Positions 6,001 through 9,000 of a stretch of DNA of 14,013 nt are shown here, piece after piece. Every line of letters starts with the position of its first letter. Positions within the stretch are counted from its first letter, which is position 1. The position numbers were made by a program. Source of the stretch: a virus. Location: the UHGV virus genome UHGV-1734115; one strand, 5' to 3'.

Positions 6001-9000
6001 GTGAATTTAGTCTGGATAGCCATAAGTGTTTTATCCATTTTTGGGAACTCCTGGCTGATTAAGTATGTCGATAAGGCGTTTCCATCCATCACGTAATTTA
6101 CGTGTGATTCGTTCAAGTAAAGATTCGGAAGGGCAGCCAGCAACAGGCCACCCTGCAATGGCATATTGCATGGTGTGCTCCTTATTTATACATAACGAAA
6201 ACGCCTCGAATGAAGCGTTATTGGTATGCATATAAAAAAGCCCTCACATTGGAGGGCAAAGAAGATTTCCAATAATCAGAACAAGTCGGCTCCTGTTTAG
6301 TTACGAGCGACATTGCTCCGTGTATTCACTCGTTGGAATGAATACACAGTGCAGTGTTTATTCTGTTGTTTATGCCAAAAATAAAGGCCACCATTAGGCA
6401 GCCTTGTTGTTCTGTTTACCAAGTTCTCTGGCAATCATTGCCGTCGTTCGTATTGCCCATTTATCGACATATTTCCCATCTTCCATTACAGGAAACATTT
6501 CTTCAGGCTTAACCATGCATTCCGATTGCAGCTTGCATCCATTGCATCGCTTGAATTGTCCACACCATTGATTTTTATCAATAGTCGTAGTCATACGGAT
6601 AGTCCTGGTATTGTTCCATCACATCCTGAGGATGCTCTTCGAACTCTTCAAATTCTTCTTCCATATATCACCTTAAATAGTGGATTGCGGTAGTAAAGAT
6701 TGTGCCTGTCTTTTAACCACATCAGGCTCGGTGGTTCTCGTGTACCCCTACAGCGAGAAATCGGATAAACTCTATTCACCCCTACAGAGAGCAAAAGAGA
6801 AACGCCGATGAACAACTCATGGTGGCAGGAACTAATGCATTTTTTCCTGCAAGGAATGACACTTAAACAGTTGATTCATATGCTAATCATCCTGATCATA
6901 TTGATTATTGTTATGCCGGTAAGCGTAAAAGAATGGATAAACCTGCATAATCCAGAAATCCTTCCTTATTATTGGATGTATTACATCCTGTTGTTCTGCG
7001 TTAGCTATGTGCTTAACGGTGTTGTTAATTCCGCTTATCACGCTGTGACTGAAAGAATTGAGGTATCCGCTGCTCAGAAGCGCAAATCTAAAGAAGAAAA
7101 ATATGTGCAAGATTTGTTTGATTCGTTAACTCTTGGAGAAAGAGCGTATTTGGCATTCGCTGTAGCCGCGAATAACCAGCTAAAGACAGAAAAGGGAAGC
7201 CCTGAAGCAATCTCATTGCTCGAAAAAGGGCTTCTTATTCGGATACCTTCTGCTACTGGATATCCTGAAATCGACCGTTTTGTTATCCCGGAACGCTATA
7301 GAAATGAGTGCTACATTCGGTTTGCCGGGAAGGCAGACAGCCTTATGGATGAACTTATCGCTCAGGATAAGCATGGCAAAAACAAGTAATTAGCAAATGA
7401 ATTTATCATCTCGCCGTCAGTTGTTTTGATTTCCGGTAGCCTGCCGCGTAAAGAGCTACGTTCGGAAGACAAGTTGAACCTTCATATTTTCTGGTCAACG
7501 TTGTCAGAGTTATCACTTCTGCTCTCATTGCTGGTTTGCGCTTGCATTGCAAGACCACTCGTGAAGGGGTTGGCCTGTGTAGCTTGTCGGAGCTGATCGC
7601 CTCCTGACTTTGCAGATTTGCGCGACGCTCTCTACGGCGAGAAGCTGCGGTTCCTTTAAATTCTGTTTTTCTGGACATGGATTCCTCCCGAATAAACTCT
7701 GGCGATGCAATCCCGAAGCTACTCCTGAGAGAGTTGCTTCGGCATTGCATCCCACAGCTTATGTGGTTGGGTGATCTGGCTTTTCAGCCACGTAGTCGAG
7801 TGTTCGACGTTGTTTAAAGAGCCTGCCAGTCTGTTCCGTTTGGCTTACAGCGTCCTGCTGATGAGTTAACTTTATCGAAATGATAAATTAATGGCAATAG
7901 CAAAATGATAAATTGTTTTAGTTTTCAAATATCCTGTTGATTATTATGGTTTTTTATTTGATTGCAGGAATTTATCAGAAGGAATAAAGAGACTTGAGGG
8001 GGATCAGAATTGCGCGTTTTAGTGAGTTGTATCTGTTTATTTTTCAACAAATACAATTGGTTATGGTGTTATTAGGTGTGGGGATCGTGAGGCAAAGAAA
8101 ACCCGGCACTGAGGCCGGGTGTGTATTAGGGGGTTGAGACTCCAGAGAGCAATCCGTAGATTTTATATACAGTAAATGCTAATGCTGGCAAGCCAAGGGC
8201 CCATTTGATTATATCAAGCTTAACATCACTAAGCTTACCTTCTAACTTTGCCTCTTGAACAGAAAGAGCTGCATCGATCTTTTTTGATTGGGAGTCAAGG
8301 GCACTCTCAATTCTACTCGATTGTATGTCCAGACGACTGTTGATTTGTTCGTGCTGAGTAACAACTAAATGCTTCATCTCCTTTATATCTGAAGCCATTA
8401 GTTCACGCCATTTGGCCATATCAGCCTGCATTTTTGAGGCCACTGCATCCACTTCAGCTTTATTTGCCTTCAGAAGTGCCTGTATTTCGTTTCTGCTCAA
8501 ATCGGACATTGCGGTTCCCTGTATAGGAGTTTCCTCGTACGGTGGGATAACATTAGATTGTCCTTTACAATCGGCAACCCCTCCTTTATCTACGATTGTA
8601 GCAGTTAGCTGGGAATTGGTCGCATCATCCACCATGTTTTTTGGTGAATAAGAGGAAATAGGCGTAGAAAACAGATTACCTTTTGCTGTTTCCATGAACA
8701 TCATGAAATCGCGAGTATTAACGTTATTCAGGGAAACTTGCAGTGGTTTAACAATACTTGATGTTTTGTAAGTAATAGTTAAATCACCTACTTCTTCCGG
8801 TTGTTGCATTACGACTTCGCTCCATTAGAGTTTTGTGCCTCTAATTGTTCGAAAAGAAGAACTATATTCTCTTGAAGAGCCTTTAGTTGTGCCATTGGCA
8901 TTATCACAGTGCATTGCTGATTGAGTTCATTTACAGAGCCTATCTGCATATTCGCTCTACCTGGTTGATCTGGTATATCATTTTGGGATAGTACCGCAGG

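What the first reader, a model, noticed from the sequence alone, without database searches (positions are those of the whole stretch)
6745..7389. Convergent AT-rich SieB-like membrane protein gene with its own repeat-containing upstream region
Seen: a plus-strand gene embedded in the minus-strand early operon, convergent with N (stops 16 bp apart); two hydrophobic N-terminal helices; strong AT bias; direct repeats CCCCTACAG(C/A)GAG x2 immediately upstream. Established knowledge: sieB-type exclusion genes lie near N in lambdoid phages and are expressed from their own promoter in lysogens. The family assignment is from memory only and the convergent arrangement raises the possibility of antisense interplay with N transcription.
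Basis: partly seen in the sequence, partly recalled or inferred. Interest (0 to 1): 0.5.

Follow-up and report, generated by a model that had tools for sequence, protein, structure and literature searches.

The report
Known sieB exclusion gene and promoter
This is an ordinary copy of sieB, the well-studied prophage gene that makes an infected cell abort a rival phage's growth; the repeat in front of it lies in a conserved control region that holds the gene's promoter on one strand and a folded antisense RNA on the other.

Summary
ORF 6808-7389 (+) is a 193-aa SieB: Pfam PF14163 at 87.7 bits, and 84.8% identical to the characterised P22 SieB. It converges on N with 16 bp between the stops. CCCCTACAG(C/A)GAG occurs at 6745-6757 and 6779-6791. 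"Strong AT bias" is overstated: 40.7% GC against 45.6% for the window, like its neighbours.

The same segment lies in 1014 of 5426 complete E. coli genomes and is already annotated as SieB. P22 records annotate the same promoter, mRNA start and in-frame Esc start (Met25, here 6880). Window 6687-6812 (-) is 123/127 identical to the published P22 sas antisense RNA read cluster. The suspected antisense interplay is therefore documented biology.

One thing goes beyond the annotation. The repeats lie in a ~105-bp block that is more conserved than the gene.
- Copy 1 is the loop and one arm of a hairpin.
- Next to it are two interleaved helices, compatible with a pseudoknot.
- Both elements show compensatory changes, and G.U pairs outnumber A.C pairs 21 to 2, which places the structure on the minus-strand RNA.
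- Copy 2 starts at +2 of the sieB mRNA.
- The same block precedes several SieB clades and an unrelated family (phrog_1244).

Verdict: already known gene and regulation. The RNA structure is a modest new detail.

The parts
6808..7389 (+). sieB coding sequence (193 aa): N-terminal helix, two transmembrane helices, long cytoplasmic helix, C-terminal winged-helix domain
6880..7389 (+). esc: in-frame internal start at Met25, giving the N-terminally truncated inhibitor of SieB
   Evidence: P22 records annotate esc at the homologous codon. Met25 is nearly invariant across 34 SieB-family proteins. The ATG at 6880 was checked. Translation from this codon was not tested here.
6745..6757 (+). direct repeat copy 1 (CCCCTACAGCGAG); lies in the -35/spacer zone of the sieB promoter and forms the loop plus one arm of hairpin HP-A
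6779..6791 (+). direct repeat copy 2 (CCCCTACAGAGAG); begins at +2 of the sieB mRNA
   Evidence: Mapped by alignment to the P22 annotated RNA start site. The 9-10 nt core is conserved even before unrelated cargo genes.
6766..6778 (+). sieB promoter -10 hexamer TAAACT (6766-6771) and inferred transcription start A6778; there is no good -35 hexamer
   Evidence: Homologous to the P22 annotated promoter and start site. The hexamer varies as TATAAT, TAAAAT or TAATAT in related modules. The simple sigma-70 scan did not call it.
6735..6759 (-). hairpin HP-A in the minus-strand RNA: UUCUCG-c-UGUA [GGGG] UACA-CGAGAA
   Evidence: 98.5% of cells paired across 52 distinct modules, with GC to UA compensatory changes; RNAalifold predicts it independently. 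G.U 14 against A.C 1 in this helix.
6704..6736 (-). two interleaved helices, S1 CCAC/GUGG (6731-6734 with 6717-6720) and S2 GCCUG/CAGGC (6723-6727 with 6704-6708): H-type pseudoknot topology or alternative hairpins
   Evidence: S2 is 99.2% paired with UA to GC in 6 sequences. S1 has many covarying types, such as CCACG/CGUGG, UCACG/CGUGA, CCUCA/UGAGG and CCUC/GAGG. 51 of 53 modules allow both helices at once, against 38 of 1000 shuffles.
6687..6812 (-). equivalent of the P22 sas antisense RNA: its 5' part is complementary to the sieB leader and start codon, its 3' part is the structured body
   Evidence: 123/127 identical to the P22A-sas read cluster published in PMC13397905.
7406..7678 (-). 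N antitermination gene, convergent with sieB; leftward pL transcription runs antisense through sieB
   Evidence: Pfam N_peptide 112.9 bits. The start at 7678 follows GGAGGA and matches the annotation of phage PhiR11_1.
7390..7405 (.). 16-bp gap between the sieB and N stop codons; no terminator-like hairpin was found
6825..6850 (+). 13-nt-arm palindrome inside sieB codons 6-15, between the SieB and Esc starts; on the minus strand it lies just 5' of the sas 5' end
   Evidence: seen, function not tested
6394..6664 (-). context: orf28 (6578-6664) and ral (6394-6594), the next genes of the leftward operon downstream of the module
   Evidence: Pfam Ral 162.5 bits. The orf28 translation is identical in style to lambda orf28.

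Best explanation
**What it is.** The region is the sieB-esc superinfection-exclusion locus of a lambdoid E. coli prophage, with the P22-type allele.

**In the lysogen (inferred from P22).** A weak, repressor-independent promoter (-10 TAAACT at 6766-6771, start at A6778) transcribes sieB rightwards, against the leftward pL operon. The mRNA gives full-length SieB, a two-pass inner-membrane protein with a cytoplasmic winged-helix domain that aborts the lytic growth of sensitive superinfecting phages. From Met25 it also gives Esc, a truncated form that inhibits SieB.

**When pL fires (inferred).** Leftward transcription through N then produces RNA antisense to sieB. A stable piece of it, the sas equivalent (6687-6812, minus strand), covers the sieB leader and start codon. 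It blocks SieB synthesis while Esc continues to be made, so the phage does not kill itself.

**The repeats.** They belong to this control block. Copy 1 is the loop and 5' arm of a conserved hairpin in the antisense RNA, and it also overlaps the -35 zone of the promoter. Copy 2 is the first ~10 nt of the sieB mRNA, that is, the first stretch the antisense RNA pairs with. The hairpin and the adjacent pseudoknot-like element most likely form the nuclease-resistant body of the antisense RNA.

**Shown here:** gene identity, synteny, sequence identity of the promoter and sas regions to P22, and conservation, covariation and strand of the RNA helices.

**Inferred:** expression, the switch itself, the membrane mechanism of SieB, and what the RNA structure does.
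For: - Family and orthology.
- P22 annotation of promoter, RNA start, sieB and esc. Near-identity of the window's upstream region to P22 and lambda.
- sas: reviews and the small-RNA data of PMC13397905; 123/127 identity.
- Same convergent placement next to N in Yersinia, Citrobacter and other divergent loci.
- Upstream block 80-93% identical where the coding DNA is 61-78% identical.
- Helices: 96.8% of cells paired, 6 pairs with double changes, 0 of 500 shuffles reaching the observed values, slid controls 30-46%. RNAalifold agrees. G.U 21 against A.C 2. Interleaved helices in 51 of 53 modules against 3.8% of shuffles.
- Protein architecture. Met25 nearly invariant.
- Annotated as SieB in 1014 of 5426 E. 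coli genomes.
Against: - The primary papers (Ranade & Poteete 1993) are not in the held library. The mapped ends and origin of sas therefore rest on reviews, the GenBank annotation and one 2026 small-RNA data set.
- A review gives sas as 105 nt, while the read cluster is 127 nt.
- No sigma-70-like promoter is visible just upstream of the sas 5' end on the minus strand, so whether sas is a primary transcript or is processed from the pL transcript is open.
- The single-sequence fold of the antisense region is no more stable than shuffles (z = -0.53).
- The covariation counts are per sequence, not per evolutionary event, and many modules are close relatives.
- No SD-like sequence precedes Met25.
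- The two repeat copies vary independently, so nothing shows that they act as a pair.
Confidence: 0.88

Rival explanations
1. The two CCCCTACAG copies are DNA binding sites for a transcription factor (phage or host) that activates or represses the sieB promoter. One site would sit at about -33 and one at +2.
For: - The promoter has a reasonable -10 but no recognisable -35, which is typical of activator-dependent promoters.
- Both copies are conserved far beyond the coding sequence.
- The 34-bp spacing is constant in 70 of 70 two-copy loci.
Against: - Conservation of copy 1 is accounted for by a hairpin whose partner arm covaries with it (GC to UA, re-registered stems). Its wobble pattern works only on the minus-strand RNA: G.U 14 against A.C 1 in that helix.
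- No candidate regulator is known or seen.
- The copies diverge independently: CCCTTACAG, CCCCCTACAG and CCCCTATAG occur in one copy only.
Confidence: 0.12
2. The repeats are relics or hot spots of module exchange, that is, short conserved sequences at which different exclusion genes are recombined into the slot, and they have no regulatory role themselves.
For: - Homology between reference lambda and the window or P22 ends immediately after the copy 2 core.
- Two IMG/VR loci have junctions inside or next to a copy (L051, L073).
- The same block precedes five SieB clades and phrog_1244 genes.
Against: - A breakpoint just after a conserved promoter and leader is what cargo swapping behind any conserved regulatory block would give.
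- Copy 1 is internal to the block and is not at a boundary in most loci. The commonest left boundary is at 6703, the edge of the pseudoknot.
- No recombinase or site-specific signature is present.
Confidence: 0.1
3. The structured minus-strand element is not part of an antisense regulator. It would instead be a processing, stabilising or termination signal of the pL operon itself, for example one that protects or separates the N segment from the orf28-ral segment.
For: - It lies between the sieB antisense stretch and the orf28 ribosome-binding site.
- The P22 small-RNA 3' end is 15 nt past the last helix, and the matching point in the window (6687) is 23 nt ahead of the orf28 start codon.
- No promoter is visible for sas.
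Against: - The block travels with the rightward cargo gene rather than with ral and orf28: 39 loci of the commonest left-junction type lack ral and orf28 but keep the block.
- There is no U-run after the helices, so it is not an intrinsic terminator.
- This reading is compatible with, rather than exclusive of, a sas function.
Confidence: 0.2

Closest known systems
P22 sieB / esc / sas (Susskind et al. 1974; Ranade & Poteete 1993)
   Same: - 84.8% protein identity.
- Same position and orientation next to the N homologue (gene 24) and ral.
- Same promoter sequence, same leader with both repeats, same internal Met25.
- sas region 123/127 identical.
   Different: - The host is E. coli rather than Salmonella, and N is lambda-type.
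- The C-terminal 12 residues and a few leader bases differ.
- Nothing functional was tested here.
Reference lambda sieB (git), NC_001416 34482-35036
   Same: - Same Pfam family (103.5 bits).
- Same slot between N and orf28/ral.
- Identical upstream block up to and including the copy 2 core.
   Different: - Only 22% protein identity.
- Homology to the window stops right after CCCCTACAG of copy 2, so lambda PaPa carries a different sieB allele behind the same control block.
Dual-start effector/inhibitor pairs such as lambda holin S105 / antiholin S107
   Same: One reading frame gives a membrane effector and, from a second in-frame start, its inhibitor (SieB/Esc; PMC3224144).
   Different: - Esc lacks 24 N-terminal residues rather than gaining 2.
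- The choice between starts is said to be set by an antisense RNA, not by an mRNA stem-loop.
cis-antisense RNAs of phages and IS elements (lambda OOP, P22 sar, IS10 RNA-OUT)
   Same: A short antisense stretch over a translation start is joined to a structured body. A loop (GGGG of HP-A) and the flanking arm are complementary to the very 5' end of the target mRNA, as in RNA-OUT/RNA-IN.
   Different: - The loop complementarity here comes from a second, repeated copy of the target's 5' end, not from the true cis-complement.
- There is a pseudoknot-compatible element and no U-tailed terminator.
- No Rfam family exists for it.

Membership tests
SieB (Pfam PF14163; P22/lambda superinfection exclusion protein B) | Sequence match to the family profile above the curated threshold | tested here: met
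   87.7 bits against a cutoff of 26, E=7.2e-25, covering profile positions 2-144 of 147. PHROG 1301 E=1.5e-122.
SieB (Pfam PF14163; P22/lambda superinfection exclusion protein B) | Close similarity to the genetically characterised P22 SieB | tested here: met
   84.8% identity over residues 1-191.
SieB (Pfam PF14163; P22/lambda superinfection exclusion protein B) | Two N-terminal transmembrane helices followed by a cytoplasmic domain | tested here: met
   Hydropathy maxima 3.03 and 1.58. AlphaFold helices at 19-35 and 56-105, then a winged-helix domain. This is a prediction only.
SieB (Pfam PF14163; P22/lambda superinfection exclusion protein B) | Location in the early-left region next to N/gene 24, transcribed against the pL operon | tested here: met
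   The same arrangement is seen in divergent loci.
SieB (Pfam PF14163; P22/lambda superinfection exclusion protein B) | Own promoter, expressed in the lysogen | tested here: inconclusive
   The sequence is nearly identical to the promoter and RNA start annotated in P22 BK000583. Expression itself cannot be tested with these tools.
SieB (Pfam PF14163; P22/lambda superinfection exclusion protein B) | Aborts lytic growth of superinfecting phages (exclusion phenotype) | not testable with these tools
   Needs plaque and one-step-growth assays.
Esc (in-frame inhibitor of SieB) | In-frame internal start codon homologous to P22 esc | tested here: met
   ATG at 6880 is Met25, aligned with the P22 esc start. 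Met25 is nearly invariant in 34 family members. Initiation there was not tested.
sas antisense RNA of P22 | Sequence of the antisense RNA present on the strand opposite sieB, covering the sieB start codon | tested here: met
   Window 6687-6812 (-) is 123/127 identical to the P22A-sas read cluster.
sas antisense RNA of P22 | Made by the infecting or induced phage, and switches translation from SieB to Esc | not testable with these tools
   Known only from the literature on P22. The primary papers are not held.
Defence systems in PADLOC (e.g. 2TM-TIR) | Significant match to a PADLOC model | tested here: not met
   Only a weak hit to the 2TM part of 2TM-TIR, E=0.0072, with no stretch passing on its own.
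Rfam RNA families | Match of the structured antisense element to a curated family | tested here: not met
   No hit at gathering score. The only hit at E<=10 is an irrelevant lncRNA at 15.3 bits.

The most novel reading that the evidence does not exclude
The repeat marks a ~105-bp portable control cassette (window 6704-6791) that has not been described as such. It combines a rightward promoter and a conserved 10-nt mRNA 5' end on one strand with a structured RNA on the other strand, made of a GGGG-loop hairpin plus an H-type pseudoknot.

The cassette sits in the slot next to N in many enterobacterial lambdoid phages. It drives interchangeable cargo: at least five SieB clades and the uncharacterised coiled-coil/zinc-ribbon family phrog_1244.

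Because copy 1 repeats the mRNA's 5' end, the antisense RNA carries two stretches complementary to that end, one of them presented in the hairpin loop. A phage carrying the cassette might therefore silence the cargo of another cassette, whatever that cargo is.
Probability: 0.35. Interest if true: 0.45.

Novelty: already known. Interest (0 to 1): 0.22.

Why it matters
The gene is a textbook prophage exclusion gene and needs no new annotation. Two points have some value.

1. The molecular mechanism of SieB is still unknown. The predicted architecture (two membrane helices, a long helix and a cytoplasmic winged-helix domain, with an N-terminally truncated inhibitor made from the same frame) gives a concrete model to test, in which a sensor domain is coupled to a membrane effector.
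2. The control block in front of sieB is more conserved than the gene and carries covariation-supported RNA helices on the antisense strand. It also precedes an unrelated, uncharacterised gene family (phrog_1244). That family is therefore a candidate exclusion or defence gene, and the sas-type antisense switch may be a general way for lambdoid phages to turn off their own abortive-infection genes.

Tried and rejected
- **Primary papers.** Ranade & Poteete 1993 (J Bacteriol and Genes Dev) could not be read by PMID, PMC id or DOI. A first literature search with loose terms returned noise.
- **Libraries with no useful hit.** NCBIfam has no model hit for SieB, N or Ral. PADLOC gave only a non-significant 2TM-TIR hit.
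- **Genome-contig scan.** It returned a single locus, a contig binned as Segatella copri that is probably an E. coli phage contaminant.
- **Single-sequence folding.** Folds of the antisense region (z = -0.53) and of the sieB leader (z = -0.70) are no better than shuffles. The case for structure rests on the alignment only.
- **Hairpin around the complement of copy 2** (CUCU...AGAG). Considered and dropped: lambda and several clades do not keep it, and RNAalifold does not predict it.
- **Own promoter for sas.** I looked by eye on the minus strand upstream of 6812. Nothing convincing was found, and the scan gives none.
- **Lambda terminator tL1.** I considered that the structured element might be tL1. 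The lambda records carry no tL1 feature and there is no U-run, so this could not be tested and is not claimed.
- **Metagenome pattern scan**. It added a few variants and four chance matches (L224, L227, L229, L245), which were excluded.
- **Automatic pseudoknot parse.** A first version mislabelled helices when its criteria were loosened. It was replaced by a fixed 4+5 bp search with a shuffle control.
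Full report
**1. The observation**

The window holds a 193-codon ORF at 6808-7389 on the + strand. It lies inside a run of minus-strand early-left genes: kil, cIII, ral and orf28 to its left, and N, two unnamed genes and a cI-type repressor to its right. Its TAA ends at 7389.

The repeat is real. CCCCTACAGCGAG is at 6745-6757 and CCCCTACAGAGAG at 6779-6791, extendable to 15 of 17 matches with 34-bp spacing. Only 1 of 2000 shuffles of the 138-bp upstream region gives such a repeat.

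Two hydrophobic segments are present. Their Kyte-Doolittle maxima are 3.03 and 1.58.

The 'strong AT bias' is the one overstatement. The gene is 40.7% GC against 45.6% for the window. That is the 10th percentile of same-size windows and no lower than ral or the genes in the rex position.

**2. Identity of the gene**

- Pfam SieB (PF14163) matches at 87.7 bits against a cutoff of 26. PHROG 1301 matches end to end at E=1.5e-122.
- By tblastn the protein is 98% identical to SieB of phage HK140 and 97% to that of VT1-Sakai and wild lambda-like phages. It is 84.8% identical to P22 SieB, the genetically defined exclusion protein.
- It is only 22% identical to the SieB of the reference lambda strain, which is nevertheless a clear family member at 103.5 bits.
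- The segment 6690-7420 occurs in 1014 of 5426 complete E. coli genomes. RefSeq calls the gene 'super-infection exclusion protein B'.

**3. Known regulation, mapped onto the window**

The curated P22 record BK000583 annotates a sieB promoter, a sieB RNA start site, the sieB CDS, and an in-frame esc CDS that starts 72 nt into sieB.

The window's upstream region is nearly identical to P22's and, up to a point, to lambda's. Transferring the P22 features gives:
- a -10 hexamer TAAACT at 6766-6771;
- a start at A6778;
- an Esc start at Met25 (ATG 6880).

Met25 is nearly invariant in an alignment of 34 SieB-family proteins, down to 15% identity. That fits a conserved second start.

Reviews and the lambda interaction-map paper summarise the biology established by Ranade & Poteete in 1993. 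SieB aborts the lytic growth of superinfecting phages, and Esc, made from the same frame, inhibits SieB. An antisense RNA called sas, made by the infecting P22, shuts off SieB translation while Esc continues (PMC12197685, PMC10002423, PMC3224144, PMC10883804).

A 2026 small-RNA study prints the P22 sas read cluster. It is 127 nt on the minus strand, running from the second codon of sieB leftwards (PMC13397905). Window 6687-6812 (-) matches it at 123 of 127 positions.

Its target is sieB translation, and the source is leftward transcription through N. I could not read the two primary papers, so the exact ends and origin of sas are second-hand.

**4. What the repeats are**

In P22 coordinates, copy 1 lies in the -35/spacer zone of the promoter and copy 2 begins at +2 of the mRNA. 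Both copies therefore also lie inside the sas RNA, as CUGUAGGGGU.

I collected related loci in three ways:
- by protein (80 IMG/VR loci);
- by exact-sequence look-up of divergent homologues from Citrobacter, Yersinia and two metagenomic contigs;
- by DNA pattern.

The pair ACCCCTACAG ... 34 bp ... ACCCCTACAG is kept even where SieB is 41-59% identical. The block from the hairpin to copy 2 is 80-93% identical where the coding DNA is 61-78% identical.

Copy 1 is part of an inverted repeat, TTCTCG-TGTA-CCCC-TACA-g-CGAGAA (6735-6759). To its left lie two more complementary pairs, CCAC/GTGG and GCCTG/CAGGC. Their arms interleave, giving H-type pseudoknot topology.

On an alignment of 52 distinct modules written in minus-strand sense (A4), the counts are as follows.
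- 96.8% of pair cells are standard pairs.
- Six pairs show changes on both sides.
- No shuffle of 500 reaches the observed values.
- Sliding the partners drops pairing to 30-46%.
- RNAalifold independently returns the hairpin and the GCCUG/CAGGC helix.

The CCAC/GUGG helix is partly misaligned by MAFFT, but it shows many covarying versions when parsed directly. Examples are CCACG/CGUGG, UCACG/CGUGA, CCUCA/UGAGG, CCUC/GAGG and CCACU/AGUGG. The other helix switches between GCCUG/CAGGC, GCCGGG/CCCGGC and GCCUA/UAGGC.

A fixed search for interleaved 4+5 bp helices succeeds in 51 of 53 distinct modules and in 38 of 1000 shuffles.

The strand can be read from the wobble pairs. In minus-strand sense there are 21 G.U cells and 2 A.C cells. 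On the plus strand those numbers would be reversed, so the structure is selected in the leftward transcript.

These counts are per sequence, not per evolutionary event, and many sequences are close relatives. The changes nevertheless occur at several different positions and in clearly separate lineages.

No Rfam family covers the element. A single-sequence fold is no more stable than shuffles, so the case rests on comparison between sequences.

**5. Reading of the repeats**

Copy 1 is constrained as the loop and 5' arm of the hairpin in the antisense RNA, and perhaps also as promoter DNA. Copy 2 is constrained as the start of the mRNA, and its complement is the first paired stretch of the antisense RNA.

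The two copies change independently: CCCTTACAG, CCCCCTACAG and CCCCTATAG each occur in one copy only. Nothing shows that they act together.

Their similarity does mean that the hairpin loop and arm are complementary to the extreme 5' end of the mRNA. This resembles IS10 RNA-OUT and RNA-IN. That is an inference and is untested.

Two rivals remain possible but less likely: a DNA-binding regulator using the direct repeats, and recombination scars at module boundaries. The covariation and strand bias explain copy 1 without a regulator. Breakpoints just after a conserved promoter are what cargo swapping would produce anyway.

**6. The block is portable**

The same block precedes P22-type SieB, lambda-type SieB and three further PF14163 clades. 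It also precedes a different family with an N-terminal coiled coil and a CxxC...CxxC C-terminus, which matches only PHROG 1244 (unknown function).

Those genes sit in the same slot, pointing towards the repressor and against the leftward operon.

Homology between reference lambda and the window stops right after the copy 2 core. In the commonest left-junction type (39 loci), the left edge of the block is exactly the outer arm of the pseudoknot, and ral and orf28 are missing.

I found no paper in the held library that describes this cassette. The 1993 papers may, however, show a structure for sas.

**7. The protein**

An AlphaFold model built from 28 homologues (mean pLDDT 79.6) has these parts:
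- a short N-terminal helix;
- a helix at 19-35;
- a conserved NPE-containing loop;
- a helix from 56 that runs on to residue 105 through a Lys/Arg-rich stretch;
- a compact C-terminal domain.

Esc would lack the N-terminal helix and the first third of the first membrane helix. A reasonable model is a membrane effector held in check by mixed oligomers with its truncated form, with a cytoplasmic winged-helix domain acting as sensor. This is inference. The literature says only that macromolecular synthesis stops midway through infection (PMC10883804).

**8. Verdict**

The finding is a correct recognition of a known gene in its known place with its known kind of regulation. It is common and already annotated.

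The residual interest lies in the covariation-supported hairpin and pseudoknot-like element of the antisense RNA, the explanation it gives for the repeats, and the sharing of the control block with an uncharacterised gene family.

Noticed in passing
window 8126-8809 (-) and 8809-9144 (-): Two genes (227 aa, PHROG 14825 of unknown function with a weak coiled-coil Pfam hit; and 111 aa with no hit) occupy the slot between the cI-type repressor (9253-9957) and pL/N, where lambda has rexA and rexB. They are candidate prophage-expressed exclusion genes.
   Followed up: partly
loci L109, L123, L156, L171, L190, L195, L208 (IMG/VR): The same promoter/antisense block precedes a non-SieB family: 155-189 aa, N-terminal coiled coil, C-terminal CxxC...CxxC, PHROG 1244 with unknown function. 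It sits in the same slot next to N and the repressor.
   Followed up: partly
L002 (NC_001416 34482-35036) against window 6779-7389: The sieB of reference lambda is a different allele, 22% identical. Sequence identity with the window and P22 ends exactly after the CCCCTACAG core of copy 2. Wild lambda-like phages carry the P22-type allele.
   Followed up: yes
window 6825-6850: A palindrome with 13-nt arms (GCAGGAACTAATG / CATTTTTTCCTGC) lies inside sieB codons 6-15, between the SieB and Esc start codons. On the minus strand it sits 12 nt 5' of the sas 5' end, so it is a possible processing or translation-control hairpin.
   Followed up: no
window 7406-7750 (-): The N ORF as listed is 114 aa, but the in-frame ATG at 7678 follows a strong GGAGGA and gives 90 aa. 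This matches the annotation of phage PhiR11_1 and the Pfam match, which begins at residue 23.
   Followed up: partly
window 6126-6184 (-): Rfam Lambda_thermo (the cIII thermoregulator) matches at 88.5 bits, in front of cIII.
   Followed up: no
window 779-868 (-): Rfam sRNA-Xcc1 matches at 62.9 bits against a gathering score of 53, in the far-left part of the window.
   Followed up: no
L019-type loci (39 IMG/VR loci) against window 6338-6703: In many related phages ral and orf28 are absent. The sequence found downstream of ral in the window (a GTGTATTCA...TGAATACAC hairpin, about 6321-6363) joins directly to TGCCTG at the left edge of the control block.
   Followed up: partly
L006 (JAJXBQ010000254.1): The only hit in the species-representative genome collection is a 4.2-kb contig binned as a Segatella copri MAG. 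It carries a 92% identical sieB with the E. coli-type flanks and is most likely a mis-binned enterobacterial phage contig.
   Followed up: no
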